The notes under the pieces: generated by a model
Seen by the model: only the letters and a program-made list of their open reading frames with translations
The model's database searches: none
Told to the model about the DNA's origin: nothing
Assembly: GCA_947482345.1 (NCBI GenBank)
Contig: CANKJN010000001.1
Coordinates: 1,558 to 65,557, forward strand
From: Spartobacteria bacterium
GTDB taxonomy: Bacteria > Verrucomicrobiota > Verrucomicrobiia > Chthoniobacterales > UBA6821
DNA: 64,000 bases
Direction of reading: 5' to 3'
Program-made: the position numbers and the translations under genes
In this document: positions 2,293-15,471 of the stretch, in pieces
How positions within the stretch are numbered: position 1 is the stretch's first letter
Layout of the letters: every line of letters begins with the position of its first letter

Positions 2293-2313
2293 GGCAAGCG
2301 TGCGTCTCCGGGG

Positions 2314-2958: not shown

Positions 2959-2971
2959 GGGATGACCCTGA

Positions 2972-3625
2972 TCAGACGAGATAGAGGATCACGTAGAGGA
3001 AGACCCAGACCACATCGACGAAGTGCCAGTAGAGACCGACATTCTCGAGGGCGACGTGGCGCTGCGGCGTGAAGAAGCGCTTGGTGACCTGAAGATAGAA
3101 GCACCAGAGGATCAGCAGCACGCCGATGCAGACGTGGGCGCCGTGGAATCCGGTGAGGGCAAAGAAGGTCGATCCGTAGATGCCCCCCTTGTTGAACCAG
3201 AGGCCCTCGTGGTAGAGCTCGGTCCACTCGATGCACTGGATGCCGACAAAGGTCGCACCCATCAGCGCCGCGGTAAGAATCCAACCCGCGCCGGACTTGC
3301 CCTTCTTCACCGCCACTTCGGCGAAGTGGTAGGCGAAGGAACTGCTGACGAGGATCACCGTGTTGATGCCGGTGAGGAGCTTGGGCATCGGAGGAAGATG
3401 AATGCCGTCGCCGAAATCGGGGGGCCAGCATCCCGCGGCCTGCCTCAGGACGAGGTAGGCGGAGATGAGCCCTCCGAAGAGCATCGCCTCGGAGCAGAGG
3501 AAGATGATCGTGCCGAGCTTGCAGATCGACGGGGGTGTCGGCGGGTACGCGTGGGCATGATCGTCATGCGCCTCGGGCTGCGGTGCGTGGAAGAGGGAAG
3601 CGTCGTTGTAGGCGGCTTGGTTCAT
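2972..3625 (-). CDS. ctaE: Cytochrome c oxidase subunit III
   Basis: 217 aa, multi-TM. C-terminal signature LENVGLYWHFVDVVWVFLYVILY is typical of subunit III. Confidence 0.9.
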   Translation of the reverse strand: MNQAAYNDASLFHAPQPEAHDDHAHAYPPTPPSICKLGTIIFLCSEAMLFGGLISAYLVLRQAAGCWPPDFGDGIHLPPMPKLLTGINTVILVSSSFAYHFAEVAVKKGKSGAGWILTAALMGATFVGIQCIEWTELYHEGLWFNKGGIYGSTFFALTGFHGAHVCIGVLLILWCFYLQVTKRFFTPQRHVALENVGLYWHFVDVVWVFLYVILYLV

Positions 3626-3646
3626 CTTGGGAAAATCGGTCGGAAA

Positions 3647-3769
3647 TCAGTAAGCCACGGCTGGGCCACGGCGTAACATCATGACCACGACCAGGGCACA
3701 GAGGGCGAGCGCAAAAAGCAACAATCCGGCCAGGATCAGGTATTGGTGACGTCGTCTCGGTGCGGTCAT
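3647..3769 (-). CDS. Possible 40-aa single-pass membrane peptide (below ORF-track cutoff)
   Basis: My own translation: MTAPRRRHQYLILAGLLLFALALCALVVVMMLRRGPAVAY, followed by a stop. It fills the gap between ctaB and ctaE and could be a small oxidase subunit. Confidence 0.35.
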   Translation of the reverse strand: MTAPRRRHQYLILAGLLLFALALCALVVVMMLRRGPAVAY

Positions 3770-3789
3770 GAGATGAAATCAGTGCTATC

Positions 3790-4689
3790 TTAGAGTCGGA
3801 AGGCGACGAGGGCTCCGAGGAGAAGCGGGAGGTAGATGATTGAGGCGAAAAACAACCTCTTCGCCGATGAGGCCGTCCGTGTTCTCACGAAATCCCCCGC
3901 CATGAAGAGCATCGCCGCCCCTAGGGCCAGTGCCGCGAAAAAATACCACGGGGAGGCATACCCGAAGAGTCCCGGCAGGAGGGAGACCGCAAGCAGGGCG
4001 GCGGCATAGATGAGCGACTGCCAGGAAGTGGCCCAACCCTCGGGATCGCGCGTGCTGAGCATCCGGAATCCCGCGGCGGCATACTGGTCGCGATAGAGCC
4101 AGGCGATCGCAAGAAAATGGGGCATCTGCCAGAACCAGAGGATCAGGAAAAGCAGCCATCCGCCGAGTCCCGTGTGGCCCGTGGCGGCGGTCCATCCGAG
4201 GAGTGGAGGCAGGGCTCCCGGCACCGCACCGAGCAGGGTATTGAGCTCACTCACGCGCTTGAGCGGCGTGTAGAGGGCGGCGTAAATGAGAATGGTCAGG
4301 AAGGATAGGAACGCCGTGATCGGATTCACCATCAGGGCCAGCAGGGCCACCCCGCTTCCGGAGCAGAGCAGACCGAAGAGCAAGGCATCGGAGGGATGCA
4401 TCCTGCGCGCGGGAAGCGGCCGGTCGAGGGTGCGCGGCATCAGGGCATCGAGGTCGCGCTCGAGCCACTGATTGAGCGCGGAGGCACCGGCGGCGCTGAG
4501 GGCCGTCCCGATCAGGGTGGCGCCCAGGAGGATGTAATCCATCGGGCCGTGCCATCCGAGCATGAAGCCGACCAGTGTTGTCAGCAGGACCAGCAGGGAG
4601 AGGCGCGCCTTGGAGAGCTCCCCGAGATCGGAAAGGATCGTGGCCTGCTTGGCCTCGTTGGTGGCGGGGGTGGTGGAATCAGCACTCAT
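3790..4689 (-). CDS. ctaB: Protoheme IX farnesyltransferase (heme O synthase)
   Basis: Real start taken at MSADSTTPATNEAK (ATG 4687-4689), in an ATGA overlap with the ctaA stop. UbiA-type motif NQWLERDLDALMPRTLDRPLP. The upstream 63 codons of the track ORF are a shadow extension. Confidence 0.9.
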   Translation of the reverse strand: MSADSTTPATNEAKQATILSDLGELSKARLSLLVLLTTLVGFMLGWHGPMDYILLGATLIGTALSAAGASALNQWLERDLDALMPRTLDRPLPARRMHPSDALLFGLLCSGSGVALLALMVNPITAFLSFLTILIYAALYTPLKRVSELNTLLGAVPGALPPLLGWTAATGHTGLGGWLLFLILWFWQMPHFLAIAWLYRDQYAAAGFRMLSTRDPEGWATSWQSLIYAAALLAVSLLPGLFGYASPWYFFAALALGAAMLFMAGDFVRTRTASSAKRLFFASIIYLPLLLGALVAFRL

Positions 4690-5729
4690 GCCGTGACTGG
4701 GCGGGCGTGCCACTCCGCGGAGCAGAAAAGCCGGAAGGTGAGCAGGATGACAAATCCCGTAAGCAGTGCCCCGAGCGCCACATGGGTCGTGGCGACATCG
4801 GCCGCCTTGTTGAACCAGATGGTCATTCCGCCCAGCAGGATCTGAAGCAGGATCGCGCCGACCCAGAGGAGGCACCATCCGCGAAGCCAGTGACCGAGCG
4901 GCGTCACCTGCAGGGCCTTGTTCGTAAAAATCAGGATGACGATGAAGAGGAGGACAGCCCCGGCGCGGTGGAGAAGTTGGAGGTGGATCTGCCCTGCGCT
5001 GACGGGAGCGATCCGGTCGGCGGCGCGCTGTGCATTGATCTTCGCCAACGAGGCGGAATCGGTCGCAGGGATCAGCGTGCCGTAGGCGGCGGGAAAGTCA
5101 CGGATCGCGAGCGGTGCGTGCTGATGACGGATGGTCGCGGCGACACCGAGTTGGAAATAGGTGAGCAGTAGGGCCGCCACGCAGAGCCACCTTAGGGAAC
5201 CGGCCGCAGGATCTCGTGACCACTTTCCGCTCAGGAAGCCACGCCCCGTAACGGCCGTGATGATCAGCAGCAGACCGAAGAAGCTCTGGGCCAGCAGGGC
5301 GTGGAAGATCCCGATCTGGTCCTTGTAGAGGGTGACACGCAGCCCACCCAGGAGACCCTGCACGCAGACCAGGATCACGGCGGCGATCGTGAGCCACTTG
5401 ACCCAAGTGCGTCCTTCTTTCCAGAGAGCGACGGCGGCGAGGATCAGGGCGATCAACCCAACGCCCGAGGCGATGAGACGGTGAGAGTGTTCCCAGAAGA
5501 TACCCCCCACCCACTTCGAGTAGGGAAAGCGGAACATGTTGTAGCCGTAGGTGGTCGGCCAGTCCGGCACCGACATGCCGACTCCCTTCGAGGTGACAAG
5601 TCCCCCGACGACGATGAGCAGGAAGGTGCTCAGGGCGCCGATCACCGCGATGCGGTGAACCGCCCGGGATCCCGTCAGGTGCGGGTTCCCGGCGCCGGAG
5701 TTCGTGGCTTCCACGGTGCCCGGGCCCAT
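4686..5729 (-). CDS. ctaA: Heme A synthase (COX15/CtaA family)
   Basis: Distal 347 codons of track ORF 4686..7013, starting MGPGTVEATNSG 8 nt after the coxA stop. Multi-TM with conserved His segments (WEHSHRLIASG, IFHALLAQ, ATIRHQH, ATTHVALGA). The upstream part of the track ORF overlaps coxA out of frame. Confidence 0.85.
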   Translation of the reverse strand: MGPGTVEATNSGAGNPHLTGSRAVHRIAVIGALSTFLLIVVGGLVTSKGVGMSVPDWPTTYGYNMFRFPYSKWVGGIFWEHSHRLIASGVGLIALILAAVALWKEGRTWVKWLTIAAVILVCVQGLLGGLRVTLYKDQIGIFHALLAQSFFGLLLIITAVTGRGFLSGKWSRDPAAGSLRWLCVAALLLTYFQLGVAATIRHQHAPLAIRDFPAAYGTLIPATDSASLAKINAQRAADRIAPVSAGQIHLQLLHRAGAVLLFIVILIFTNKALQVTPLGHWLRGWCLLWVGAILLQILLGGMTIWFNKAADVATTHVALGALLTGFVILLTFRLFCSAEWHARPVTA

Positions 5730-5737
5730 GGCGGGAC

Positions 5738-7513
5738 TCAGTGGGCCTCCAGCGTGACGTGGGCGGGAGCCTTCTCGTTCTGCGGAAGGAAGTCCTTCTG
5801 AAGACCGGGCACGCTGTACTCGTAGGGGCCGTGGTAGACGGTCGGCGTGACGGGGAAGTTCCCGTGCTGGATCGGATGGGAGAGCGTCCACTCGAGGGTG
5901 GTCGAATTCCAGGGATTGGCTGGTGCGTCGGGGGCCTTGCGGAGGCTCATGACGAGATTCACCACGAAGGGGATGGTTGCCAGTCCGAGTCCGATCGCGC
6001 CGATCGTGCAGACCACGTTGAGCGGCTGAAGCTGGCGCAGGCAGTCGTAGACGGTCGGGTCGGCGATGCGGCGCATCATGCCGCCGAGGCCGAGGTTGTG
6101 CATCGGGAAGAAGGTGAGGTTGAAGAAGACAAAGGTCATCCAGAAGTGGATCCAACCGAGGGTGTTGTCGAACATCCGGCCCGTCATCTTGGGGAACCAG
6201 AAGTAGATCGCCGCGAAGATCGCGAACATGGACCCGCCGAAGAGAACGTAGTGGAAGTGGGCGACGATGAAGTAGGTGTGGTGGACGAAGAGGTCGACCG
6301 GCGTGGAGGCCATGAAGATGCCGGAGAGACCGCCGATCACGAACATCGAGACGAAGGAGACCGCGAAGGCCATCGGGACGGTGTAGTGGATCGATCCGCG
6401 CCAGATGGTGCCCATCCAGTTGAAGGTCTTGATAGCGCTCGGCACGGCGATGACCATCGTCGAGACGGAGAAGGCGGCGCTGAGGGTCAGGTTCATTCCG
6501 CTGACATACATGTGGTGTCCCCAGACGATGAAGCCGAGGAAGCCGATCGCGATCATCGCCCAGACCATCGCCTTGTAGCCGAAGACCGGCTTGCGGGAGT
6601 TCACCGAGAGGATCTCGGAGGTCAGACCCATCGCGGGGAGGATCAGGATGTAGACCTCGGGGTGGCCGAAGAACCAGAAGAGATGCTGCCAGAGCAGCGG
6701 CTGCCCTCCACCCTGGGGCTTGTAGAAGCTGGTTCCGAGATTCAGGTCGAAGATGATGAGTGCGGCCGCGGCCGAGAGGACGGGGATCGCGAGGATGAGC
6801 AGGATCGCCGTCAGGAAGATCGCCCAGACGGGAAGCGGCATCCGGAACATCGTCATGCCGGGGGCGCGCATCGTGATCACGGTGGTGATGTAGTTGACGG
6901 CTCCGGTCAGTGAGGAGAGTCCGTTGACGAAGAGAGCCACGCACCAGAGCGTCTGTCCCATCGGGGTCTGGTTGTAGGCGGCCACACTGCTGAGAGGGGC
7001 GTAGCCGGTCCAACCCGTGCCGGGAGCGCCGCCCGGCACCCAGAAGGAGGACATCATGATCACGCCGGAGAGCGCGAAGAGCCAGTAACTCAACTCGTTG
7101 AGGGCGGGAAACGCCATGTCACCGGCACCGATCTTGAGCGGGATGAGGAAGTTGCCGAAGACGCCGATGAGAAGAGGCATCGCGACAAAGAAGACGAGGA
7201 TCGTCCCGTGCATGGTCACGAGCACGTTGTAGCCGCTGGGCATGATCGCTCCCTCGTCATTGACGATGCCGGAGGGAAGGAGATGCCCGAGCACGGGGAT
7301 CGGATGACCCGGGAAACCCAACTGCCAGCGCATCGCCACGGCCATGGCCCCGCCGATGAGCAGGAAAAAGACAGCCGAGACGAGGAACTGCATCGCGATC
7401 ACCTTGTGGTCGGTGTTCCAGATCCAGTGCATGATGCCAGGTTTGCCGTGGCCATGGTCATCGCCATGGTGGGCGGGGGCTGCGTGACTGTCGGCGGTGA
7501 CGGAAGCGCTCAT
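5738..7513 (-). CDS. ctaD: Cytochrome c oxidase subunit I (A-type heme-copper oxidase)
   Basis: 591 aa with classic motifs: WFFGHPEVYILILPAMG, GFIVWGHHMY, YFIVAHFHYVLFGG. Confidence 0.97.
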   Translation of the reverse strand: MSASVTADSHAAPAHHGDDHGHGKPGIMHWIWNTDHKVIAMQFLVSAVFFLLIGGAMAVAMRWQLGFPGHPIPVLGHLLPSGIVNDEGAIMPSGYNVLVTMHGTILVFFVAMPLLIGVFGNFLIPLKIGAGDMAFPALNELSYWLFALSGVIMMSSFWVPGGAPGTGWTGYAPLSSVAAYNQTPMGQTLWCVALFVNGLSSLTGAVNYITTVITMRAPGMTMFRMPLPVWAIFLTAILLILAIPVLSAAAALIIFDLNLGTSFYKPQGGGQPLLWQHLFWFFGHPEVYILILPAMGLTSEILSVNSRKPVFGYKAMVWAMIAIGFLGFIVWGHHMYVSGMNLTLSAAFSVSTMVIAVPSAIKTFNWMGTIWRGSIHYTVPMAFAVSFVSMFVIGGLSGIFMASTPVDLFVHHTYFIVAHFHYVLFGGSMFAIFAAIYFWFPKMTGRMFDNTLGWIHFWMTFVFFNLTFFPMHNLGLGGMMRRIADPTVYDCLRQLQPLNVVCTIGAIGLGLATIPFVVNLVMSLRKAPDAPANPWNSTTLEWTLSHPIQHGNFPVTPTVYHGPYEYSVPGLQKDFLPQNEKAPAHVTLEAH

Positions 7514-7517: not shown

Positions 7518-8453
7518 TTAGAGGGTATTCTTTGCGGGAGATGCGGTCAAGGTGGCGGCCTTTGGAGCCGTGGAAGCGGCCTGGGGGGCCGAAGGCGCTG
7601 AAGGGGCGGGCTGTGCCGGGCCGGCGTTCTTCTGCTGTCGGGGGGTCAGCCATTTCTGGAACTCCTCTTCGGTGACCACACGGATCGGCGCCTTCATGTT
7701 GTAGTGGCCGGTTCCGCAGAGTTGGTTGCAGGCCAGCTGGAACTCGCCCGTGCGGGTGGCCTGGAACCAGACCCAAGCGATCGTGCGGCCCGGCACGCAG
7801 TCCTGGTAGAGGCGGAACTCGGGAACGTAGAAGGAGTGGATCACGTCGCGGGCGTGGAGCAGGAGATGGACAGGCCTGCCGACCGGAATGACCAGTTCGG
7901 GCGCCACCACATCCTGCGCGGTGAGCGGGTTTTCCGGATCCGTTCCGAAGCGGTTCTCGGGGCCGATCTTACGGACATCCATGGGGGCGAGTTTCCCGCT
8001 GATGCCGGGATAGCGCATATCCCAGCCGAACTGGTAGCTGGAGACGTCAATGACGAGCGAGTTCTCGGGCGCGGGACGGTGGATGTTCTCCCAGATGCGG
8101 TTACCGTAGATAGCGAGCGCCAGGAAGACGAGGGTCGGGGCCGTGGTCCAGATGATCTCGAGCGTGTTGTTCCCATGGCTGTAGTGGGCGGGAACGCCGG
8201 GACGGCGGCGGTACTTGATGAGGTAGTAGACGTATGTGACCTGGGTGAGCACGAAGATCACGGCGCAGAGCCAGAAGATGATCTTGATCAGGTCGTCGAT
8301 CTGCTCGCCTACCGTCGTGACGCAGGGAGGAAGTAGGTAGACATTGCCGGAGCGCTGCTCCGCCATGAGCGAGGAGGCCGCCAGCACCGGCAGCAGCAGG
8401 AACGCCCCGGAGAGGATCCGGGTGAACGGGCGGCGGAAGGAAAACTCTCTCAT
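7518..8453 (-). CDS. ctaC: Cytochrome c oxidase subunit II
   Basis: 311 aa. Two N-terminal TMs and the CuA centre (VIHSFYVPEF ... CNQLCGTGHYNM). Ala/Pro/Ser-rich C-terminal tail. Confidence 0.93.
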   Translation of the reverse strand: MREFSFRRPFTRILSGAFLLLPVLAASSLMAEQRSGNVYLLPPCVTTVGEQIDDLIKIIFWLCAVIFVLTQVTYVYYLIKYRRRPGVPAHYSHGNNTLEIIWTTAPTLVFLALAIYGNRIWENIHRPAPENSLVIDVSSYQFGWDMRYPGISGKLAPMDVRKIGPENRFGTDPENPLTAQDVVAPELVIPVGRPVHLLLHARDVIHSFYVPEFRLYQDCVPGRTIAWVWFQATRTGEFQLACNQLCGTGHYNMKAPIRVVTEEEFQKWLTPRQQKNAGPAQPAPSAPSAPQAASTAPKAATLTASPAKNTL

Positions 8454-8462: not shown

Positions 8463-9104
8463 TTATTTGGCGGGGGCCTGGGTGCCTTTGGCGGGAGGGA
8501 TGGCCAGCAACTGGGCCTGGGTCCAGGCCTCGCTCTGGGACGCGTGCTCCTTCCGGAGGCTCGCGACGAAGGCGGGGTCGACTGCGGAGGCCTTGTTCCC
8601 CCACTCCGAGCGGATGTAGGTGAGGATCGAGGCGATCTGGTCGTCGCTGAGCTGCTTCCACTGGGGCATGGCGTTGTTGTAGTTGGCCCCCATGACCTGC
8701 ATCGGACCCTGATGGCCGTGGAGCATCAGCAGGACGAGATGGTTCTCACCCTGCTTGTCGCCGCCGTTGACCCACTCGCTTCCGGCAAGGGGAGGAAACT
8801 GACCGGCCACACCCTGTCCGTTGGCCTGATGGCAGACAACGCAGTTCTGGCTGTAGAGACGCTTGCCCACGACCTTGGGATCAACGGGTGCGGCGGCTTG
8901 CGTGCCGCCACCGGTCCAACTCACCGCGTTGGACTCGTAGACATCCTGGCGGAACCCGCCGCTGTTGAAGGCGAGGTAGAAGCCGCCCCAGAAGATCGCG
9001 ACGATGAAGGCGCCGACGAGCCATGGGGAAAGGGGCGCACCGGAATTCCCGGAGGATTCCCCTCCACCGCACTCCTGCTTGTGATTGTGTTGATCGTGAT
9101 TCAC
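8463..9104 (-). CDS. Membrane-anchored monoheme cytochrome c (CcoP/FixP-like N-terminus)
   Basis: 213 aa. His-rich N-terminus, one TM (WLVGAFIVAIFWGGFYLAF), and a single CxxCH (NCVVCHQANGQG) with a distal Met region (NNAMPQW). Confidence 0.8.
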   Translation of the reverse strand: MNHDQHNHKQECGGGESSGNSGAPLSPWLVGAFIVAIFWGGFYLAFNSGGFRQDVYESNAVSWTGGGTQAAAPVDPKVVGKRLYSQNCVVCHQANGQGVAGQFPPLAGSEWVNGGDKQGENHLVLLMLHGHQGPMQVMGANYNNAMPQWKQLSDDQIASILTYIRSEWGNKASAVDPAFVASLRKEHASQSEAWTQAQLLAIPPAKGTQAPAK

Positions 9105-9125
9105 GGCTGATCGTTCTGGATCGTT

Positions 9126-9770
9126 TTACTTGGCCGGCCCGGCACCCGCTTTCTTCACGGGAGCCTCGGGCAGGGGATAATCATGACGCAGGGAGAGGAG
9201 ATAGGCGACGAGGTTCTTCGCCTCCGCCGTCGGAACCACTTCGTAACCCTGCTTCGGGGCATCCGCACCGGTCAGGTTGAGCGCCTCGTCGGAGCGCGCT
9301 CCCTGGATCTTGCGGAGAAGGAAGAGATGGCTGTAGGAGGGCATGAGCGACCCCTCGCAGACGGAGGAGGGATGGTAGAGATGCTTGTAATGCCAGGCGG
9401 CGTCGGGAAGACGCACGCCGACATTCGAGAGATCCTGGCCCAGGCGGCGGGAACCGAGGAAGGCCGTGCTGTCGCGCAGATAGTCGCGGGCCACCGAGGG
9501 ACGGACGCCCCAACCGCGCTCGATGTCGGTCTGCGTGATGCTTGTCTGGCGGACCTGCTGACTGTGGCAGGAGACACACCCTTCGGTCGCATAGATTCGC
9601 TGGCCGGCCACCGCCTGACCGCCGTAGACGGGAGGGAGGGTGCCGCCGGTGTCGGCATCGGCCACCGGGGAGAGGCGGCCCAATCCAAGCACGGGATAGG
9701 CGACCAGCCCGAGCCAGGAGGTCAGGAAAACCAGGAAGATGCCGCTGAGCAGTGTCGGTAGGCGGTGCAT
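9126..9770 (-). CDS. ccoO: cbb3-type oxidase subunit II-like monoheme cytochrome c (CcoO/FixO family)
   Basis: Start taken at MHRLPTLLSG (ATG 9768-9770), 1 nt after the upstream stop. Motifs: YATEGCVSCHSQQVRQ, ERGWGVRPSVARDY, LGSRRLGQDLSNVG, WHYKHLYHPSSV..SLMPSY. Confidence 0.85.
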   Translation of the reverse strand: MHRLPTLLSGIFLVFLTSWLGLVAYPVLGLGRLSPVADADTGGTLPPVYGGQAVAGQRIYATEGCVSCHSQQVRQTSITQTDIERGWGVRPSVARDYLRDSTAFLGSRRLGQDLSNVGVRLPDAAWHYKHLYHPSSVCEGSLMPSYSHLFLLRKIQGARSDEALNLTGADAPKQGYEVVPTAEAKNLVAYLLSLRHDYPLPEAPVKKAGAGPAK

Positions 9771-9771
9771 G

Positions 9772-11214
9772 TTATTTCTTCTTCGGGAAGAGGTAATCCC
9801 ACGCAAGGGCGCGGGAGAGATTGAGTCCGAGGATCACCGCGGCGGCAAGAAGCATGAGCTGCGCCCCGCACTCCAGGACATGGAAGGGATAGGAGTAGGA
9901 GGTGATGTTGAGGAAGGAGACGGTGGGGTCGTTCAGCGCGAGTCCGGTGAAGAGGCCCCCGAAGAGCATCAGTCCGACCAGCAGCCAGAGCCCCGAGAAG
10001 GTGAGCCAGTAGTGGCGGGCGGAGAGGGAGGCGCACCAGCAGTCGCGACCCAGCAGGGCGGGGAACGACTCGTAGAGCACCGCAAAGAGCGGGAAAGAAA
10101 TCGCTCCGAGAATCCAGAGCTGGGTCTTGGCCTCGGTGACGGCGGTGAAGCGGAGAGCGCCGCTGATCTCCGGCAGCGCGCAGAGGGCTCCCAGGATTCC
10201 GATCGAAATCAACGCATAGATCCCGGTCCTCAGGAAGCGAATCACCACACCCTCCTCAACATCGCTGTTCTTATCAGCGCTCTTGTGGGCGCTCATGCCG
10301 AGGAGATTGATCGCGATGATCACCACCGGGATCAGGAAGAGGACTCCGGCCACGACGCCGGCCGAGGTCATCCAGGCGGGAACAGGGCCGCCGATGAGTC
10401 GCTCCATGCCGTTCCATCCACCGAGCAGGAGCAGCATCCAGAATCCGAGGGTCGCCAGATTGCGGCGGTTGAGATGGCTACCGACCAGGCGGGGCATCAA
10501 GGCGTAGAGGGCGGCGATGGCCACCGGCAGAAGCCAGAGGGCAAGCAAGCTTCCGCAATACCACGATTGGATCGGTCCCTGCGCGGAGGCCTGCACCGGC
10601 TTCCAAGTCAGCAGAAGGTTCGCGGTGCCGTAGACCCAGGGGAACCAGCAGAAGGCGGCGACAAGGAACCACTGGGCGACCTCGGCGCGCTCGTTGGCGC
10701 GGCGGTCGAACTGGAGCACCGCCCAGATGCCGATGAGCAGGAAGGAGAGGAGCAGCATCGCCGAGGCCCAGTTCGGGTACTCGAGCCATTCCACCCCGGT
10801 GCTGTAACCGGCGAAGATCGCGAGCGTGCCGAGCAGGATGGCGACGTTCCAGAGGACCGTGGCGCTGACCAGGAGCGTGGAGTGCAGAATCCCCCCGAGA
10901 GGCCGTCCGCTGAGGCGGGCCATCAGCCAGATACCGGCGGCAAGCGCGGCCTGGGAAGCCCATCCGTAGAGGAAGAGATCCCGCGCCATCGGCGCGAGAC
11001 GGCCGTAGGTGAGGAAACTGACGCCGCCGAGGAATCCGGGGGCGATCAACTTCACCGAGAGGATGAAGGAGATCAGCGAGGCGACGACCAGCCAGTGGAC
11101 GGCATTGCCGAAAAGAACCAGCACCGGGAGGCGCACCGAGGCATCAACGGCGCGCGTCTCGGCCGTTCCGCGATCCTCCTCGGCGTGATGATGGGGAAAG
11201 ATGTTCTCGCTCAT
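9772..11214 (-). CDS. CcoN-like 12-TM protein lacking the canonical heme/CuB ligands
   Basis: 480 aa. Colinear blocks with CcoN (YGRLAPMARD, GVEWLEYPNW, IQSWYCGSLLALW, FWMLLLLGGWNGMERL, VIRFL, RFTAVTEAKTQLWILG), but the positions of the six ligand His and the cross-linked Tyr carry other residues. See finding. Confidence 0.75.
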   Translation of the reverse strand: MSENIFPHHHAEEDRGTAETRAVDASVRLPVLVLFGNAVHWLVVASLISFILSVKLIAPGFLGGVSFLTYGRLAPMARDLFLYGWASQAALAAGIWLMARLSGRPLGGILHSTLLVSATVLWNVAILLGTLAIFAGYSTGVEWLEYPNWASAMLLLSFLLIGIWAVLQFDRRANERAEVAQWFLVAAFCWFPWVYGTANLLLTWKPVQASAQGPIQSWYCGSLLALWLLPVAIAALYALMPRLVGSHLNRRNLATLGFWMLLLLGGWNGMERLIGGPVPAWMTSAGVVAGVLFLIPVVIIAINLLGMSAHKSADKNSDVEEGVVIRFLRTGIYALISIGILGALCALPEISGALRFTAVTEAKTQLWILGAISFPLFAVLYESFPALLGRDCWCASLSARHYWLTFSGLWLLVGLMLFGGLFTGLALNDPTVSFLNITSYSYPFHVLECGAQLMLLAAAVILGLNLSRALAWDYLFPKKK

Positions 11215-11543
11215 TGCTGGGAAGGCTTAACGGCGGTTTTCAGCGTCGGGAGGACCAGTTCCATCGCGCGCGTGATCGGAATCCGGACAACACCCTTGGC
11301 CTTGTCGTTCCATCCGTAGGTGGTGAGGGCCGCCTTGTCGGCCGCCTGAAGTTCCGCGAGGTTCTTTGTCCGCTCGGCGGAGCGCGCCGCATCCTCGAGT
11401 TCGGTGGCGGAACCGGAGCGGTTGATCCAGAGGGCGCCGGCAGCCGCGATCAGGAGCAGGATCAGCACGGCCACGCCGAGCAGGATGCCGGGACCGCGCG
11501 ATCCGGTCGCGCTCTCATGGGATGTCTCGTGATGGTGTGTCAT
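11211..11543 (-). CDS. Small single-pass membrane protein of the ACIII/oxidase cluster
   Basis: 110 aa. His-rich N-terminus, one TM (ILLGVAVLILLLIAAAGALWI), and a C-terminal block YGWNDKAKGVVRIPITRAMELV. ATGA overlap with the downstream gene; 1-nt overlap with actF. Confidence 0.6.
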   Translation of the reverse strand: MTHHHETSHESATGSRGPGILLGVAVLILLLIAAAGALWINRSGSATELEDAARSAERTKNLAELQAADKAALTTYGWNDKAKGVVRIPITRAMELVLPTLKTAVKPSQQ

Positions 11544-12739
11544 CAGTCGTTGTAATTGGCAGCCTCGGCGAGGCGCGGGTCACGTGATGGCCAGAGCGGG
11601 GAATCGCCCAGTTTCTTGAGGAAGAGGGCACCCAGAGTGCTGCCGATGGCGATGACTGCCGCGATGTCCAGAACGGCGGGGTCGAATCCCTCCGGGTGCA
11701 GCACGGGAAGGATCATGGTGTAGAGGTCGAGCAGGTGCATCGCCAGGATCCACCCTGCAACCATCCCGAGGAAGCCGGCGCTCGCCTTCGGCGCACGGAA
11801 GATGAGAAGGGTGAAGGGGATGAGGAAGTGGCCGACCACAAGGACGATGCCGAGCACCTTCCAGGAGCCCGTCGAGCGGAGAACGTAGTAGGCGGTCTCC
11901 TCGGGGATGTTCGCATACCAGATGAGCATGTACTGGACGAAGGCGATCCAGGACCAGAAGAGCGTGAAGGCGAGCAGCAGCTTGCCGAAGGCGAAGTTGT
12001 GCTGCGCGGTCAGGACCCGCCCGAGGTAGCCGGCGGAGCGGAGTGCGTTGGCAAGCAGGATGATGAGGCAGAGCGCCGCGAGGGCGGAACCGGCGAAGAG
12101 GTAGATGCCGAAGATCGTGGAATACCAGCGGATGTTCAGGCCCATGATCCAGTCGAACGACCAGAAGGTGAGCGCGATGGCTCCCACGGGAATGATGAAG
12201 AAGGCCACACGGCGGTTGCGGATCGTGTGGATCGCGGCCCCGTCCTTGTCCTGCGCGATCGAGTTGCGGCGCAGCAGCGCGGCCACGATGCCGAAGAGCA
12301 GGAAGTAGAAGACTGTGCGCAGCCAGAAGAAGTTGACGTTGAGGTAGGCTGATTTCTCGGCCAGCTCATGGTCGTGGACTGGATCCGCTGCCATCCAGGT
12401 CCAGACGAGCGGCGCCACGAAAAAGAGCGGCACGAGCAGAAGCGCCAGCAGCGGCAGGAGGCAGGAGATGTTCTCGAGTTGACGGCGGATGCCGACGCTC
12501 CAGGCGCTGTCGACCGCGTGATGGACCACGACCCAGAAAAGTGAGCCGATCAGGAGGGTGAAGAAAAAGCTTCCGGCGAAGAGCCAGGAGAAGGCGAACT
12601 GCTTCGGGTCACCCAGGCCGAGCACCAGGGTGATGATGAGAGTGACGACCGCCGTCAGGCAGAGGCCTACGAAGCGGCCCCCGACATGCTTGTAGTCGAA
12701 GGTCTCCGGGGCCGGAAGTGATGTCTGCTCGTTGCTCAT
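11543..12739 (-). CDS. actF: Alternative complex III subunit ActF (NrfD-like membrane subunit)
   Basis: 398 aa polytopic membrane protein, located immediately after actE in canonical act gene order. Confidence 0.8.
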   Translation of the reverse strand: MSNEQTSLPAPETFDYKHVGGRFVGLCLTAVVTLIITLVLGLGDPKQFAFSWLFAGSFFFTLLIGSLFWVVVHHAVDSAWSVGIRRQLENISCLLPLLALLLVPLFFVAPLVWTWMAADPVHDHELAEKSAYLNVNFFWLRTVFYFLLFGIVAALLRRNSIAQDKDGAAIHTIRNRRVAFFIIPVGAIALTFWSFDWIMGLNIRWYSTIFGIYLFAGSALAALCLIILLANALRSAGYLGRVLTAQHNFAFGKLLLAFTLFWSWIAFVQYMLIWYANIPEETAYYVLRSTGSWKVLGIVLVVGHFLIPFTLLIFRAPKASAGFLGMVAGWILAMHLLDLYTMILPVLHPEGFDPAVLDIAAVIAIGSTLGALFLKKLGDSPLWPSRDPRLAEAANYND

Positions 12740-12742
12740 CGG

Positions 12743-13465
12743 TCAGGGCTGGGCAGGGGTGGAGGCGGCGTTGGTTCCCTGCAGGGCCGCGCGCTCTGCT
12801 GCGGGGACATCATTGATCGTCGCGTTCTGCGAGCGCTGCAAGGCGCGGACATAGGCGACGATCGCCCAGCGGTCGGGCACCTGGATCACCGATCCGTATC
12901 CGAGCATCGTGTTCTTGCCGTTGGCGATCGTGTTGTAGATCTCGCCATCGGTCATCTCGCGGAGGCGCTGCTGGTGGAGGTTGGCGACGCCGACAAGACC
13001 GTACTTCGTGGCGATGCCGTTGCCGGCGCCCGTATCCCCGTGGCAGACGGCGCACTGGATCTGGTAACGCTCGCGGCCGCGCTCGAGGGTCGCCATGGTG
13101 GCGTTGAAGGGAAGTCCGTTGCCCCAGTTGGTGCCGTTCTTTCCGGTGTCGGCGTAGCCTTCCTTGCCGGAGAAAATGACGACCTCGTAGGGGCCGCTCA
13201 TGACGGCGCCGTTTGATGATGCGGCGGACGGCTTCACCGGCTCGCTGTAGCCGACGGGGACCGTCCCGGCGACCGGTTCGCGGGAGCCGCGTCCGTCGGC
13301 GAAGAATCCGCTCGGAACCTGGGCCTTCACCTTGGGCTGGCGCACCATGTCGGGGAAGATCTCGATCGGCGGGCGCTTGGTCTTGCAGCCGCGCAGTCCC
13401 GCGATGGAGACCACCAGGATGACCAGCAGGGTCAGGAGAAGGATGAAGTAGCGGATGAGGCTCAT
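12743..13465 (-). CDS. actE: Alternative complex III subunit ActE (monoheme cytochrome c)
   Basis: Start taken at MSLIRYFILLL (ATG 13463-13465), 4 nt after the actD stop. N-terminal anchor and a single CxxCH (QCAVCHGDTGAGNG). Confidence 0.8.
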   Translation of the reverse strand: MSLIRYFILLLTLLVILVVSIAGLRGCKTKRPPIEIFPDMVRQPKVKAQVPSGFFADGRGSREPVAGTVPVGYSEPVKPSAASSNGAVMSGPYEVVIFSGKEGYADTGKNGTNWGNGLPFNATMATLERGRERYQIQCAVCHGDTGAGNGIATKYGLVGVANLHQQRLREMTDGEIYNTIANGKNTMLGYGSVIQVPDRWAIVAYVRALQRSQNATINDVPAAERAALQGTNAASTPAQP

Positions 13466-13469
13466 GGCG

Positions 13470-14054
13470 TTACTTGGATTCCTCCTCGAGATGGATGGCG
13501 GTGACATCGCCGGCTCCGAGTTGATCGAGAAGCTCGGTCACTCCGGCCGTGGTGAATTTTTTGTCATCGGCCTCGACCGCGAGGAAGAAGCCGCGCGAGG
13601 CATCCTTGGCGAAGAGGTCCCAGGCGAACATCGGATTGTTCAGGCGGGGCATGCCACCGAGGATGATCATTCCCTTCACCGCGGCGATGGCGCCGATCAT
13701 CAGCGTGAGTGCCACGACGATCGGCACATACTGGGGAAGGGCCGAGAGATTGAGTGGCTTGCCGTCCACGACGAGAGGGTAGATGAGGGTGCTCGGGACA
13801 AGCTCCATCGATAAGGCGATCAGGATGGCCGTGAGTCCGCCGCCCAACACGAGGAAGCTGAGGAGCGACTTGGGCAGGCGCATCACCTCGGCGAGTCCGT
13901 GCACCGGATAGGGGGTGTAGCACTCGTAGGCGGAGTAGCCCTCGGCACGCAGGCGGTTCACCGCGGCCAAAAGCTGGTCAGGGGTGTCGAACCGTGCACC
14001 GATCGCGTGGAGCGGCTCCTCCTTGGATCCGCAGATGGGAAGGTGATGGCTCAT
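13470..14054 (-). CDS. actD: Alternative complex III subunit ActD (DUF3341-type)
   Basis: Distal 194 codons of track ORF 13470..14339, starting MSHHLPICGSKEEPLHAIGARFDTPDQLLAAVNRLRAEGY. Two TMs. The upstream part of the track ORF overlaps actC out of frame. Confidence 0.8.
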   Translation of the reverse strand: MSHHLPICGSKEEPLHAIGARFDTPDQLLAAVNRLRAEGYSAYECYTPYPVHGLAEVMRLPKSLLSFLVLGGGLTAILIALSMELVPSTLIYPLVVDGKPLNLSALPQYVPIVVALTLMIGAIAAVKGMIILGGMPRLNNPMFAWDLFAKDASRGFFLAVEADDKKFTTAGVTELLDQLGAGDVTAIHLEEESK

Positions 14055-14056
14055 CT

Positions 14057-15466
14057 TTAGTGTCCCTCCCCGGTTGAGTGCTTGGGCTGTGATCCCGGAA
14101 GCGCGGCCTTGAGCTCGCTCATGTTGACGATCGGGACGAAGCGTATGAAGAGCAGGAAGAGCGTGAAGAAGATGCCGACCGTTCCGGTGGCGGTCAGGAT
14201 GTCGACGATCGTGGGGTGGAAATTCCCCCAGGAGGAGGGCAGGAAGTCGCGGGTGAGCGTGGTGGTCACGATCATGAAGCGCTCGAACCACATGCCGACG
14301 TTGCAGAGGATCGCCAGGACCACGACAAGCGGCAGGCATCGGCGAACCGCCTTGAACCAGAAGAGCTGGGGAATCGTCAGGTTGATCGAGAGACAGGTGA
14401 TCGCATACCAGCTGTAGCTGCCGGTGAAGCGCTCCCAGAATGCGCCACGCTCAAAAGGGTTCGCGCTGTACCAGGCGTTGAAGAGCTCGAAGACGTAGAC
14501 GTAGGCGACGCAGGATCCCATCATGAGAAGGAGCTTGCAGACCTTGTCGAGGTGGGACGGGGTGATCAGTTCCTTGAGCTGGGGATAGATTGTGCGGAGA
14601 GGGATGAGGAGGGTCAGGATGGTGGCGCTTCCGCTGTAGACCGCGCCGACCATGAAGTAGAAAGGGAAGATGGTGGCGTGCCAACCGGGGACGACCGACG
14701 TGGCGCAGTCGCTGGCCACGATCGTGGTGACGGTGACAACGAGGACCGAGGTGAGCCCCGCGAGCAGGACATACATCATCTCGAAGTGACGCCACTGGCG
14801 GGCGGTGCCGAGCCAACCGAGGGAGACAAGGCCGTAGGCGAACTTGCGGACCTTGGTCGTGGCGCGGTCGCGGAGGACGGCGAGATCGGGGATCATGCCG
14901 GCGAACCAGAAGAGCGAGGAGACGGTCAGGTAGCTGGTCACCGCGAAGACGTCCCAGAGCAGCGGGCTCGAGAAGTTCGGCCACATGCCGTAGCTGTTGG
15001 GCACGGGGAAGAGGAACCAGACGAACCAGACGCGCCCGATGTGGATCGCGGGATAGACGCCGGCGCAGACGATGGCAAAGACGGTCATCGCCTCGGCGGC
15101 GCGGGAGATCGAGATGCTCCACTTCTGGCGGGTCAGAAAGAGGAGCGCGGAGATGAGTGATCCGGCGTGGGCCATGGAGACCCAGAAGATGAAGTTCGTG
15201 ATGTCCCAAGCCCAGAAGCAGGGGCTGTTGGAGCCCCAGACGCCGACGCCCGTCACGATCATGTAGAGGATGCAGGCTCCGCCGATTGCGGCGAAGGCGC
15301 CGGAGACGGAGATGGCGGCATACCACCAGAGCGGGGTCTTCCCCTCGACGATCGAGCAGACCGCGTCAGTCACCCAGAGCGGGCCGCGGTTGTTGAGCAC
15401 CTGCGGCGGGCGGGCGATGGCGCTCAGATCGGGAGCGGCTGTCTCGTTGGAAGTGGTCGCGGACAT
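14057..15466 (-). CDS. actC: Alternative complex III subunit ActC (NrfD/PsrC-family quinol-interacting membrane subunit)
   Basis: 469 aa, about 10 TM helices, located directly after the Mo-pterin/FeS-like ActB. Confidence 0.9.
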   Translation of the reverse strand: MSATTSNETAAPDLSAIARPPQVLNNRGPLWVTDAVCSIVEGKTPLWWYAAISVSGAFAAIGGACILYMIVTGVGVWGSNSPCFWAWDITNFIFWVSMAHAGSLISALLFLTRQKWSISISRAAEAMTVFAIVCAGVYPAIHIGRVWFVWFLFPVPNSYGMWPNFSSPLLWDVFAVTSYLTVSSLFWFAGMIPDLAVLRDRATTKVRKFAYGLVSLGWLGTARQWRHFEMMYVLLAGLTSVLVVTVTTIVASDCATSVVPGWHATIFPFYFMVGAVYSGSATILTLLIPLRTIYPQLKELITPSHLDKVCKLLLMMGSCVAYVYVFELFNAWYSANPFERGAFWERFTGSYSWYAITCLSINLTIPQLFWFKAVRRCLPLVVVLAILCNVGMWFERFMIVTTTLTRDFLPSSWGNFHPTIVDILTATGTVGIFFTLFLLFIRFVPIVNMSELKAALPGSQPKHSTGEGH

Positions 15467-15471
15467 GCCTG

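What the first reader, a model, noticed from the sequence alone, without database searches (positions are those of the whole stretch)
8463..11214. cbb3-like trio whose catalytic CcoN homologue has lost all canonical heme and CuB ligands, wedged between ACIII and an aa3 oxidase
**Homology.** The 480-aa ORF (9772-11214) is colinear with cbb3 subunit CcoN. Recognisable blocks, ORF versus reference:
- YGRLAPMARD vs FGRLRPLHTN
- IQSWYCGSLLALW vs VQWWYGHNAVGFF
- FWMLLLLGGWNGMERL vs FWALITVYIWAGPHHL
- RFTAVTEAKTQLWILG vs HYTDWTIGHVHAGALG

The reference strings are recalled from memory of Pseudomonas stutzeri CcoN and are not checked.

**Ligand loss.** In this by-eye alignment, each position that should hold a metal ligand carries another residue.

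| Canonical ligand | Residue in this ORF |
|---|---|
| First heme b His | Ala |
| CuB His | Gly |
| Cross-linked Tyr | Gly |
| CuB His-His pair | Glu-Arg |
| Heme b3 His | Lys |
| Second heme b His | Gln |

**Partners and position.** The partner CcoO keeps its CxxCH (CVSCH) and SLMPSY region. The next ORF is an anchored monoheme cytochrome c (CVVCH). The three genes are translationally coupled into the operon (ATGA overlap at 11211-11214, 1-nt gap at 9771). They sit exactly between actABCDEF and coxBA.

**Hypothesis.** A redox-dead heme-copper-oxidase scaffold that still carries c-type cytochromes could act as a structural or electron-wire adaptor between ACIII and the aa3 oxidase, rather than as an oxidase.
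Basis: partly seen in the sequence, partly recalled or inferred. Interest (0 to 1): 0.75.

Follow-up and report, generated by a model that had tools for sequence, protein, structure and literature searches.

The report
Cofactor-less cbb3 oxidase relic in ACIII operon
A soil/freshwater Verrucomicrobium keeps, under clear purifying selection, a full-length copy of the catalytic subunit of a cbb3 oxygen reductase that has lost every heme and copper ligand; it is still paired with its heme-c partners and is always wired into the alternative complex III operon, so it most likely serves as a membrane scaffold for an electron relay, not as an oxidase.

Summary
ORF 9772-11214 (-) is a genuine CcoN / heme-copper-oxidase subunit I homologue: Pfam COX1 E = 1.5e-29, and an AF2 model with TM 0.88-0.90 to P. 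stutzeri CcoN. All six His ligands, the cross-linked Tyr and His337 are replaced.

It is not a decaying pseudogene. dN/dS is 0.06-0.17, like its neighbours. In about 80 relatives down to 61% identity, 115 of 480 positions are at least 97% conserved.

The state is widespread in Verrucomicrobiota. 147 of the 150 nearest 50%-identity cluster representatives lack a complete ligand set.

Every degenerate copy examined sits directly after actABCDEF plus a small TM gene. Each is followed by a CcoO-like protein (CxxCH and axial Met kept) and an anchored c552-like cytochrome c.

Sister lineages hold an intact CcoN in the same slot. Ligand loss tracks loss of the assembly gene ccoS (45/46 versus 0/41).

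Constraint has shifted to the periplasmic loops, where CcoO docks in solved cbb3 structures.

Best reading: a redox-dead relic of an ancestral ACIII-cbb3 supercomplex, kept as a scaffold for a heme-c relay from ACIII to the downstream aa3 oxidase. The adaptor role itself is inferred, not shown.

I found no description of this in the searchable literature. Databases name these genes "cbb3-type cytochrome c oxidase subunit I".

The parts
9772..11214 (-). psi-CcoN: 480-aa, 12-helix heme-copper-oxidase subunit I homologue with no heme b, heme b3 or CuB ligands and no cross-link Tyr
   Evidence: Pfam COX1 E = 1.5e-29. TIGR00780 scores 75.7 bits against a cut-off of 583. Alignment to PDB CcoN chains. 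Ligand columns read A,G,G,E,R,R,K,Q. AF2 pLDDT 91.5 and Foldseek TM 0.88-0.90 to 3mk7. dN/dS 0.06-0.17.
9126..9770 (-). CcoO-like monoheme cytochrome c: N-terminal TM anchor, CVSCH heme site, SLMPSY axial Met region
   Evidence: Pfam FixO E = 6e-22. TIGR00781 scores 75.7 bits, below the cut-off of 200.65. phmmer to PDB CcoO chains E = 4e-15. CxxCH and xMPx[YF] are kept in every degenerate locus whose gene was complete on its contig.
8463..9104 (-). Membrane-anchored monoheme cytochrome c (CVVCH) with a Thermus c552-like domain; it takes the position of CcoP
   Evidence: Pfam Cytochrom_C E = 1e-15. Best PDB sequence hits are Thermus cytochrome c552, E = 2.6e-21; CcoP scores only 1e-6 to 1e-9. 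Conserved downstream of CcoO in related loci.
11211..11543 (-). 110-aa single-TM protein in the ActG position, translationally coupled (ATGA) to psi-CcoN
   Evidence: No Pfam family. A homologue is found by tblastn between actF and the CcoN-like gene in nearly all related loci. Overlap read directly.
11543..12739 (-). ActF (NrfD-like membrane subunit of alternative complex III)
   Evidence: By position and tblastn conservation in all loci. No Pfam hit.
12743..13507 (-). ActE (monoheme cytochrome c of ACIII)
   Evidence: Pfam Cytochrome_CBB3 / Cytochrom_C.
13470..14054 (-). ActD
   Evidence: Pfam ActD E = 6e-42. Start refined to the ATG at 14054.
14057..15466 (-). ActC (NrfD family quinol-site subunit)
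   Evidence: Pfam NrfD.
15472..18609 (-). ActB (Fe-S / molybdopterin-like subunit)
   Evidence: Pfam Fer4_7, Fer4_11, Molydop_binding.
18564..19223 (-). ActA (multiheme cytochrome c)
   Evidence: Pfam Cytochrome_C7 / c3.
7518..8453 (-). CoxB (aa3 oxidase subunit II) with an intact CuA motif CNQLCGTGHYNM and no fused cytochrome c domain
   Evidence: TIGR02866 155 bits, above cut-off. Sequence. CuA motif conserved in relatives.
5738..7513 (-). CoxA (A-family heme-copper oxidase subunit I, intact)
   Evidence: Pfam COX1 E = 1.2e-151. TIGR02891 640 bits.
1586..5729 (-). Oxidase maturation and remaining subunits: CtaA 4686-5729, CtaB 3790-4689, CoxC 2972-3625, SCO1 2314-2958, DUF420 1586-2023
   Evidence: Translations. 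The same gene order with Pfam COX15-CtaA, UbiA, COX3, SCO1-SenC and DUF420 in L001/L003/L006. Coordinates refined.

Best explanation
The 480-aa protein is a pseudoenzyme. It is a CcoN (cbb3 oxidase subunit I) that has lost hemes b and b3, CuB and the catalytic Tyr, but is kept as a folded 12-helix membrane subunit.

It descends from a functional cbb3 oxidase that was encoded inside the ACIII operon of ancestral Verrucomicrobiota, probably as an ACIII-cbb3 supercomplex.

In the window's lineage the oxygen chemistry was handed to the aa3 oxidase encoded immediately downstream. The dead CcoN was retained because its periplasmic face still docks the heme-c subunit CcoO. Together with the anchored c552-like cytochrome, this holds a short chain of c-type hemes next to ACIII.

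Proposed electron path: menaquinol -> ActC/ActB -> ActA/ActE hemes -> CcoO heme c and/or c552-like heme c -> CuA of CoxB -> CoxA.

Shown:
- homology and fold
- complete ligand loss
- purifying selection
- invariable ACIII linkage
- retention of the c-heme sites
- co-loss of ccoS

Inferred:
- that the proteins assemble with ACIII
- that the c hemes relay electrons
- that aa3 is the acceptor
For: 1. **Fold and homology.**
2. **Ligand loss.** All eight cofactor positions are replaced in the window and in all 80 relatives at 61-98% identity.
3. **Selection.** NG86 dN/dS is 0.06-0.17, the same range as ActB, ActF, CcoO and CoxB in the same genome pairs. 115 of 480 positions are at least 97% conserved. 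All copies are intact ORFs of 468-500 aa.
4. **Relaxed but maintained.** psi-CcoN is less conserved than ActF and CcoO (61-65% against 77-82%). In loci with full ligands, CcoN is more conserved than they are (76% against 62-64%).
5. **Synteny.** 28 of 28 degenerate loci with enough upstream sequence have actF directly upstream. CcoO-like and cytochrome c follow in all.
6. **Ancestry.** Intact CcoN (HHYHHHHH) occupies the same slot in Terrimicrobiaceae and Chthoniobacterales loci.
7. **ccoS tracks the ligands.** ccoS is present in 45 of 46 loci with full ligands. It is absent in 41 of 41 multiply degenerate loci. The two loci with a single substitution still carry it.
8. **c-heme sites kept.** CxxCH and Met are retained in CcoO-like proteins, CxxCH in the cytochrome c, and CuA in CoxB.
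9. **Constraint on the periplasmic face.** Column entropy is 0.64 bits in periplasmic loops, 0.92 in TM helices and 1.88 in cytoplasmic loops. Loop 135-147 (which includes the Glu aligned with the Ca-site Glu122 of CcoN) scores 0.10 bits. In intact CcoN the TM helices are the most conserved part.
10. **No shared new motif.** No residue is gained in common by all degenerate clades. This argues for loss plus scaffold retention rather than a new active site.
11. **An intact oxidase follows.** 19 of 20 evaluable degenerate loci are followed by an A-family oxidase, against 13 of 26 intact ones.
12. **c552-like partner.** The third protein is Thermus c552-like.
Against: - There is no direct evidence of expression, assembly or electron transfer.
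- In L007, L090 and L091 the operon ends after the cytochrome c with no oxidase nearby. aa3 therefore cannot be the obligatory partner everywhere; the acceptor may be encoded elsewhere or be different.
- In cbb3, CcoO's heme hands electrons down into CcoN. Whether its geometry allows lateral transfer to another cytochrome or to CuA is unknown.
- In F. johnsoniae, ACIII reduces aa3 without any such module, and even ActE is dispensable (PMC8552683). A relay is therefore not mechanistically required.
- The loci compared are phylogenetically non-independent, so the 19/20 versus 13/26 contrast is only suggestive.
- The contact of the conserved loops with CcoO is inferred from memory of the 3MK7 structure. 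It was not measured here.
Confidence: 0.6

Rival explanations
1. Structural relic only. The dead CcoN-CcoO pair is retained because ACIII, or the ACIII supercomplex, needs it for assembly or stability. This would resemble the protease-derived core proteins of mitochondrial bc1. The CcoO heme would play no necessary part in the main electron path, or would serve as a side exit to soluble acceptors.
For: - The module follows ACIII even without an adjacent oxidase.
- ACIII can reduce aa3 without such a module in F. johnsoniae (PMC8552683).
- psi-CcoN is always translationally coupled to the act genes.
Against: - The CxxCH and axial Met of CcoO, and the CxxCH of the third protein, are conserved throughout. 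A purely structural role would not demand that.
- Some relatives add further cytochrome c domains to the module: L091 has a FixO + Cytochrom_C fusion, and L008 has extra di- and monoheme cytochromes.
Confidence: 0.2
2. Still a redox enzyme. The protein binds heme and/or metal through non-canonical ligands and catalyses O2, NO or other chemistry.
For: - Three His are conserved in the window clade: H40 99%, H401 96%, H445 89%.
- Lys and Gln occupy the His345 and His347 positions.
- HCO families with altered active sites exist, such as gNOR, eNOR and NOD (PMC11214002).
- A separate 'HN' group keeps both axial His of the low-spin heme.
Against: - All eight positions are replaced, and the replacements are variable at four of them. 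Position 257 is E/D/S/T/A/G/Q; position 345 is K/G/Q/R/V/L/C.
- H40 and H445 are not shared by other degenerate clades, and H401 is a non-ligand His of all CcoN.
- No polar residue is gained in common.
- ccoS is absent.
- The small residues Ala/Gly/Gly at His60, His207 and Tyr251 are what is conserved.
- The cytoplasmic half, where a proton channel would start, is the least constrained region.
Confidence: 0.05
3. Repurposed non-redox membrane module. The 12-helix bundle now conducts protons or ions, or is conformationally coupled to ActC/ActF. It would be analogous to antiporter-like subunits in complex I.
For: - The TM core is still well conserved (0.92 bits).
- Charged residues replace ligands inside the membrane domain: R78, D79, E271, R272, R355, K364.
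- ACIII proton translocation is unresolved (PMC5928083).
Against: - Those charged residues are clade-specific. Position 78 is E/T/S/M/L and position 79 is N elsewhere.
- The residues aligned with the C-family channel Ser and His are Ala and Gly (their channel role is from memory).
- N-side helix halves and cytoplasmic loops are the least conserved parts.
Confidence: 0.08
4. Decaying pseudogene or annotation artefact: a dead copy on its way out, with no function.
For: - Loss of all catalytic residues.
- Faster evolution than its neighbours.
Against: - dN/dS is 0.06-0.17.
- ORFs are intact at constant length in more than 80 clusters (90% identity) and in 147 of the 150 nearest representatives (50% identity).
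- 115 positions are near-invariant.
- Translational coupling is conserved.
- The AF2 model is of high confidence.
Confidence: 0.02

Closest known systems
cbb3-type cytochrome c oxidase, CcoNOP (C-family heme-copper oxidase; P. stutzeri 3MK7/5DJQ, R. capsulatus 6XKW)
   Same: - Subunit I fold: TM 0.88-0.90, colinear over about 430 residues.
- An adjacent CcoO homologue with TM anchor, CxxCH and axial Met.
- A third membrane-anchored cytochrome c in the CcoP position.
- Conserved periplasmic loop motifs (YGRL, WxY, PxW, and the Glu aligned with the Ca-site Glu122).

   Different: - No His ligands for heme b, heme b3 or CuB, no cross-link Tyr, and no His337.
- The residues aligned with the channel Ser and His are replaced.
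- No ccoS.
- The third subunit is a monoheme c552-like protein rather than diheme CcoP.
- Scores are far below the TIGR00780 and TIGR00781 equivalog cut-offs.

Verrucomicrobial ACIII-cbb3 gene clusters (reported for Methylacidiphilum, PMC6688271; here Terrimicrobiaceae/Chthoniobacterales loci L009, L010, L025-L036 and others)
   Same: - Identical gene order: actABCDEF, small TM gene, CcoN, CcoO, anchored cytochrome c, (CoxB ...).
- 36-41% identity between the window protein and these CcoN.

   Different: - Those loci have the full HHYHHHHH ligand set and a 60-aa CcoS/FixS gene directly upstream of ccoN.
- Their CcoN is the best-conserved protein of the module.

ACIII-aa3/caa3 supercomplexes of Flavobacterium johnsoniae and Rhodothermus marinus (Sun 2018, as cited in PMC8552683; Sousa 2018, PMC5928083)
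   Same: - The act operon is followed by an A-family oxidase operon.
- Direct ACIII-to-oxidase electron transfer through c hemes without a soluble carrier.
   Different: - Those complexes contain no CcoN-like or CcoO-like subunit.
- R. marinus uses a cytochrome c domain fused to oxidase subunit II (PMC5928083).
- Here CoxB has no c domain, and three extra genes lie between the two operons.
Non-O2-reducing heme-copper-oxidase families (cNOR, qNOR, NOD, eNOR, sNOR, gNOR, nNOR; Murali et al. 2024, PMC11214002)
   Same: HCO subunit I homologues that have lost the active-site Tyr and do not reduce O2.
   Different: - All of those keep both hemes and a metal site.
- The paper states that gNOR is the first HCO family to replace even one active-site His.
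- Here every His is gone.
Pseudoenzyme subunits of respiratory complexes, such as the Core1/Core2 proteins of mitochondrial bc1, which derive from the matrix processing peptidase (my knowledge, not tested here)
   Same: An enzyme fold retained as a structural subunit after catalytic residues were lost.
   Different: Unrelated fold and complex; this is an analogy only.

Membership tests
Heme-copper oxidase superfamily, subunit I (Pfam PF00115 COX1) | Sequence match above Pfam's gathering threshold over the 12-helix core | tested here: met
   103.6 bits against a cut-off of 34.8, E = 1.5e-29, residues 32-447 on profile positions 4-429 of 436.
Heme-copper oxidase superfamily, subunit I | 12-TM fold of subunit I | tested here: met
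   AF2 model with 12 long helices, pLDDT 91.5. Foldseek gives TM 0.88-0.90 to 3mk7 CcoN, 0.77-0.81 to cNOR and 0.70-0.75 to A/B-family subunit I.
Heme-copper oxidase superfamily, subunit I | Six invariant His: two axial ligands of the low-spin heme, one of the high-spin heme, three of CuB/FeB | tested here: not met
   The columns read A, G, E, R, K, Q in the window. None is His in the 80 closest relatives, apart from scattered single His at position 258 or 347.
C-family O2 reductase CcoN (NCBIfam TIGR00780 equivalog) | Score at or above the equivalog cut-off | tested here: not met
   75.7 bits against 583.15.
C-family O2 reductase CcoN | Cross-linked active-site Tyr on helix 7 (Tyr251 in P. 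stutzeri) | tested here: not met
   Gly in the window; G, A or S in all relatives of the clade.
C-family O2 reductase CcoN | CcoS/FixS cofactor-insertion factor encoded with the oxidase | tested here: not met
   No ORF lies between the 110-aa gene and the CcoN-like start (ATGA overlap). tblastn with CcoS from L010 finds it in 45 of 46 full-ligand loci and 0 of 41 multiply degenerate loci. A copy elsewhere in the genome cannot be excluded.
C-family O2 reductase CcoN | Partner CcoO with a covalently bound heme c | tested here: met
   The adjacent FixO-family protein has CVSCH and SLMPSY.
CcoO (NCBIfam TIGR00781 equivalog) | Score at or above the equivalog cut-off | tested here: not met
   75.7 bits against 200.65. 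Pfam FixO is above its own cut-off, 78.6 against 29.6.
Alternative complex III (actABCDEF) | Co-linear genes for a pentaheme ActA, Fe-S ActB, NrfD-type ActC and ActF, ActD and monoheme ActE | tested here: met
   Pfam Cytochrome_C7, Fer4/Molydop_binding, NrfD, ActD (E = 6e-42) and Cytochrome_CBB3 in order at 11543-19223. ActF is assigned by position and conservation only.
Subunit of an ACIII supercomplex (physical membership) | Co-purification or co-structure with ActA-F | not testable with these tools
   Only operon linkage is available: 28 of 28 degenerate loci have actF directly upstream.
A-family (aa3) cytochrome c oxidase, downstream genes | Intact CoxA and a CuA-bearing CoxB | tested here: met
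   CoxA: Pfam E = 1.2e-151, TIGR02891 640 bits. CoxB: TIGR02866 above cut-off, with CNQLCGTGHYNM.

The most novel reading that the evidence does not exclude
The cofactor-free CcoN may not be an inert scaffold. It may be a heme-copper-oxidase fold permanently converted into a non-redox working subunit of a verrucomicrobial ACIII holo-complex, for example a proton or ion conduit, or a conformational coupling element next to ActC/ActF. That would make ACIII-psiCcoNO-c552(-aa3) a structurally new kind of respiratory machine, and a third evolutionary fate of the oxidase fold besides O2 and NO reduction.
Probability: 0.1. Interest if true: 0.9.

Novelty: new variant of a known kind. Interest (0 to 1): 0.72.

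Why it matters
1. **An exception to a supposed invariant.** The heme and copper ligands of heme-copper oxidases are treated as essentially invariant. A 2024 survey calls gNOR the first family to change even one active-site His (PMC11214002). A large, selected clade with none of them shows the fold can outlive its chemistry. It also gives a natural apo-scaffold for studying oxidase assembly and supercomplex architecture.

2. **A caught evolutionary handover.** It records the transition from ACIII-cbb3, through ACIII-cbb3-aa3, to ACIII-relic-aa3. The co-loss of ccoS acts as an internal control.

3. **Consequences for annotation.** These genes are named "cbb3-type cytochrome c oxidase subunit I" or K00404 in NCBI, IMG and TARA records. 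Marker-gene surveys that read ccoN as "high-affinity, microaerobic respiration" will therefore over-call that trait in abundant soil and freshwater Verrucomicrobiota.

4. **A predicted complex.** It predicts a 10-or-more-subunit ACIII complex that can be tested directly by cryo-EM.

Tried and rejected
- **Literature.** Nine full-text searches and four papers read gave no description of a ligand-less CcoN.
  - One search was wasted, because "pseudo" matched Pseudomonas.
  - Key subscription papers (Refojo 2010 and 2012; Ducluzeau 2008) are not in the library, so prior mention cannot be excluded.
- **Number of independent losses.**
  - A BLOSUM62 NJ tree suggested two origins, with the "HN" group nested among intact CcoN.
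  - With the ligand columns removed and 100 bootstraps, this is not resolved: dead clade monophyly 36%, dead+HN 37%, intact+HN 10%. I make no claim on it.
- **Alternative heme ligands.** I looked for His, Met, Cys or other residues conserved across all degenerate clades and found none. Only Y70 and L228 differ consistently from intact CcoN.
- **First dN/dS script.** It timed out and was rerun with a faster aligner.
  - dS is near or beyond saturation for pairs below about 80% identity.
  - The ratios from WIN-L011, WIN-L012 and L014-L022 are the reliable ones.
- **Cavity and heme-pocket inspection, and distance measurements.** Neither was possible, because the model coordinates and PDB coordinates are not exposed.
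- **A cultured carrier.** No isolate was identified. All named members are MAGs.
- **The rest of the window (19-64 kb).** It holds housekeeping genes and no other oxidase.

Full report
**What is in the window**

All the genes concerned lie on the minus strand and form one long operon.

| Gene | Coordinates |
|---|---|
| actA | 18564-19223 |
| actB | 15472-18609 |
| actC | 14057-15466 |
| actD | 13470-14054 |
| actE | 12743-13507 |
| actF | 11543-12739 |
| 110-aa single-TM ORF (ActG position) | 11211-11543 |
| CcoN-like ORF | 9772-11214 |
| CcoO-like ORF | 9126-9770 |
| anchored monoheme cytochrome c | 8463-9104 |
| coxB | 7518-8453 |
| coxA | 5738-7513 |
| ctaA, ctaB, coxC, sco1, DUF420 gene | 1586-5729 |

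There is an ATGA overlap at 11211-11214, a 1-nt gap at 9771, and short gaps before the cytochrome c and coxB.

The nearest public record is a Chthoniobacterales MAG (Verrucomicrobiota) at 98% identity. The rest of the window is housekeeping genes with no other oxidase.

**Checking the observation**

Homology to heme-copper oxidase subunit I is secure.
- Pfam COX1 gives E = 1.5e-29 over residues 32-447.
- phmmer aligns the protein colinearly with the solved CcoN chains 6xkw_n, 9g6b_A and 3mk7_A.
- An AlphaFold2 model built on 53 homologues has pLDDT 91.5 and pTM 0.92. It superposes on P. stutzeri CcoN with TM 0.88-0.90 and rmsd 2.4 A at only 18% identity.

The protein nevertheless scores 75.7 bits on the ccoN equivalog model, whose cut-off is 583.

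In both the HMMER pairwise alignments and a 123-sequence MAFFT alignment, the cofactor positions read as follows.

| Canonical position | Residue here |
|---|---|
| His60 | Ala |
| His207 | Gly |
| Tyr251 | Gly |
| His257 | Glu |
| His258 | Arg |
| His337 | Arg |
| His345 | Lys |
| His347 | Gln |

The residues aligned with Ser and His of "SIVHFW" are Ala and Gly. From memory, those two belong to the C-family proton channel.

**It is not a pseudogene**

- The protein database holds about 80 clusters at 61-98% identity. All are full length (468-500 aa) and all lack the ligands.
- Within that set, 115 of 480 positions are at least 97% conserved.
- Nei-Gojobori dN/dS against close relatives is 0.06-0.17. 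That is the same range as ActB, ActF, CcoO-like and CoxB in the same genome pairs.
- Constraint is nevertheless relaxed relative to its neighbours. At the divergence where ActF and CcoO-like are 77-82% identical, psi-CcoN is 61-65% identical. In loci with intact ligands, CcoN (76%) is more conserved than ActF and CcoO (62-64%).

**It is a large family, always tied to ACIII**

The best 79 loci are almost all Verrucomicrobiota.
- With the ten loci fetched earlier, there are 89 loci in all (L001-L089). They split as follows:
  - 46 with the complete HHYHHHHH set
  - 41 with multiple ligand substitutions
  - 2 with a single substitution
- A full HMMER pass over 1.84 billion 50%-identity representatives returned 258 proteins at E <= 1e-30. 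Of the best 150, only three have the full ligand set. The others show very varied replacements.
- Source labels include Chthoniobacterales, "Spartobacteria", Opitutales/Opitutae and a TARA ocean sample.
- Every degenerate copy with enough flanking sequence lies directly after actF plus the small TM gene (28 of 28). Each is followed by a FixO-family protein and a cytochrome c. This holds even at 28-35% identity to the window protein.

**Where it came from**

In Terrimicrobiaceae and other Chthoniobacterales, the same slot holds an intact CcoN preceded by a 60-aa CcoS/FixS gene.

Across the 89 loci, ccoS is present in 45 of 46 full-ligand loci and in none of the 41 multiply degenerate ones. The two single-substitution loci still carry it.

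Many full-ligand loci also carry coxBA-ctaAB-coxC downstream. An ACIII-cbb3(-aa3) super-operon is therefore the likely ancestral state.

ACIII-cbb3 co-location in Verrucomicrobia is already in the literature for Methylacidiphilum (PMC6688271).

How many times the ligands were lost is not resolved. A first NJ tree suggested at least two losses, but bootstrap support without the ligand columns is weak for every alternative.

**What still looks functional**

- The CcoO-like proteins of degenerate loci keep CxxCH and the xMPx[Y/F] axial-Met motif.
- The third protein keeps CxxCH, and CoxB keeps its CuA motif. The apparent exceptions in that table are truncated contigs or regex misses, not lost sites.
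- The third protein is not CcoP-like in sequence. It is a TM anchor plus a Thermus cytochrome c552-like domain (E = 2.6e-21, against 1e-6 to 1e-9 for CcoP).
- CoxB here has no fused cytochrome c domain.
- Within psi-CcoN, the most conserved parts are the periplasmic loops:
  - Mean column entropy is 0.64 bits in periplasmic loops, 0.92 in TM helices and 1.88 in cytoplasmic loops.
  - Loop 135-147, AGYSTGVEWLEYP, scores 0.10 bits. It contains the Glu aligned with the Ca-site Glu122 of CcoN.
  - The periplasmic halves of the helices are more conserved than the cytoplasmic halves (0.79 against 1.05).
  - In intact CcoN the order is reversed: TM helices 0.83, periplasmic loops 1.02.
- No residue has been gained in common by the different degenerate clades.

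**Most likely mechanism (confidence about 0.6)**

An ancestral ACIII-cbb3 supercomplex lost its oxygen chemistry once an A-family oxidase was available in the same operon.

The 12-helix subunit was kept as a cofactor-less scaffold, because its periplasmic face holds CcoO. Together with the anchored c552-like cytochrome, it keeps c-type hemes positioned between the ActA/ActE hemes and the CuA of CoxB.

Shown:
- fold
- ligand loss
- selection
- ACIII linkage
- ccoS co-loss
- retention of the c-heme sites
- the shift of constraint to the periplasmic face

Inferred:
- physical assembly
- the electron route
- aa3 as acceptor

Two points support aa3 as acceptor. 19 of 20 evaluable degenerate loci are followed by an A-family oxidase, against 13 of 26 intact ones (the loci are not phylogenetically independent). 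CoxB also lacks its own c domain.

Three points argue against aa3 being the universal partner, or against a relay being required at all.
- L007, L090 and L091 end the operon after the cytochrome c.
- F. johnsoniae ACIII feeds aa3 without any such module (PMC8552683).
- The geometry for lateral transfer from CcoO's heme is unknown.

**Rivals**

| Rival | Confidence | Main point |
|---|---|---|
| Scaffold needed only for assembly, with the CcoO heme a side exit or idle | 0.2 | Fits the ACIII-only loci, but does not explain the universal conservation of the heme sites |
| Non-redox ion or proton module | 0.08 | Charged replacements are clade-specific and the cytoplasmic half is the least constrained |
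| Enzyme with non-canonical ligands | 0.05 | Replacements are variable, no shared new residues, no ccoS |
| Decaying pseudogene | 0.02 | Contradicted by selection and conservation |

**Comparison with what is known**

[quoted passage not shown] It fails every feature that defines a C-family oxygen reductase apart from having a CcoO partner, so it should not be filed as "cbb3 oxidase subunit I". NCBI and IMG nevertheless name it that way.

The known non-O2-reducing HCO families all retain hemes and a metal site. Murali et al. 2024 describe gNOR as the first family to replace even one active-site His (PMC11214002). The solved ACIII-aa3/caa3 supercomplexes contain no such subunit (PMC5928083, PMC8552683).

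I found no description of a ligand-less CcoN in the searchable library. The older subscription papers on ACIII gene clusters could not be read.

**Verdict**

A real, widespread and selected pseudoenzyme derivative of a known oxidase, embedded in a known complex's operon: a new variant of a known kind.

Noticed in passing
L073-L077, L084, L086, L087, L058 (for example L075 9929-11431): A second kind of degenerate ACIII-linked CcoN has the pattern H-N-[S/A]-Q-R-x-Y-[H/Q]. It keeps both axial His of the low-spin heme b (FGRVRAAH...; ...AYSH) but has no CuB ligands, no cross-link Tyr, and Tyr in place of the heme b3 His. It might be a heme-b-only intermediate. Its CcoO carries a long low-complexity insertion.
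   Followed up: partly
L009, L010, L025, L026, L051, L054 (about 12.9-13.8 kb in each locus): In several loci with an intact ACIII-cbb3 module, the anchored cytochrome c is followed by an orphan coxB. It has a complete CuA motif (CSQLCGTGH[YF]NM), but no coxA lies within 8-10 kb. This is a CuA subunit encoded with a cbb3 oxidase and without its own subunit I.
   Followed up: partly
L013 versus L014, act genes versus psi-CcoN onward: Synonymous divergence between these two MAGs jumps from 0.35-0.7 (actB to the ActG-like gene) to 1.7-2.2 (psi-CcoN through coxC). This suggests a recombination breakpoint, or a chimeric assembly, exactly at the act / psi-ccoN junction.
   Followed up: no
window 11214-11170 (psi-CcoN N-terminus), 11543-11510, 9104-9070, 7513-7440: Four membrane proteins of the operon begin with His-rich cytoplasmic N-termini: psi-CcoN MSENIFPHHHAEE (H9 is 85% conserved), the ActG-like protein MTHHHETSHE, the cytochrome c MNHDQHNHKQE, and CoxA ...HAAPAHHGDDHGHG. 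The purpose is unknown; it could be metal binding or merely compositional.
   Followed up: no
window 9772-11214: residues H40 (TM1), H401 (TM11), C189, R78-D79: These residues are specific to the window clade and are near-invariant: H40 99%, C189 99%, R78/D79 at least 97%. They are absent from other degenerate clades. H40 and the universally conserved H401 both lie in the cytoplasmic half of neighbouring helices, judged from helix positions in the AF2 secondary structure. No distances could be measured.
   Followed up: partly
window 19515-19973 (+); also L001, L003, L005, L009, L010 just upstream of actA: A DUF192 (COG1430) gene is conserved in divergent orientation immediately upstream of actA, in both the intact and the degenerate loci.
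   Followed up: no
CcoO-like heme motif, window about 9540; related loci: The residue before the second Cys of the CcoO heme motif is Tyr in essentially all intact-cbb3 loci (C[VIL]YCH). It is Ser or Ala in the window clade (C[VI][SA]CH). This is a partner-subunit change that tracks the loss of heme b in CcoN.
   Followed up: no
L091 11410-12534; L008 12190-14054: Some degenerate modules have gained c hemes. L091 has a CcoO-like protein fused to an extra cytochrome c domain (374 aa). L008 has an additional diheme (443 aa) and a monoheme (165 aa) cytochrome c after the module.
   Followed up: no
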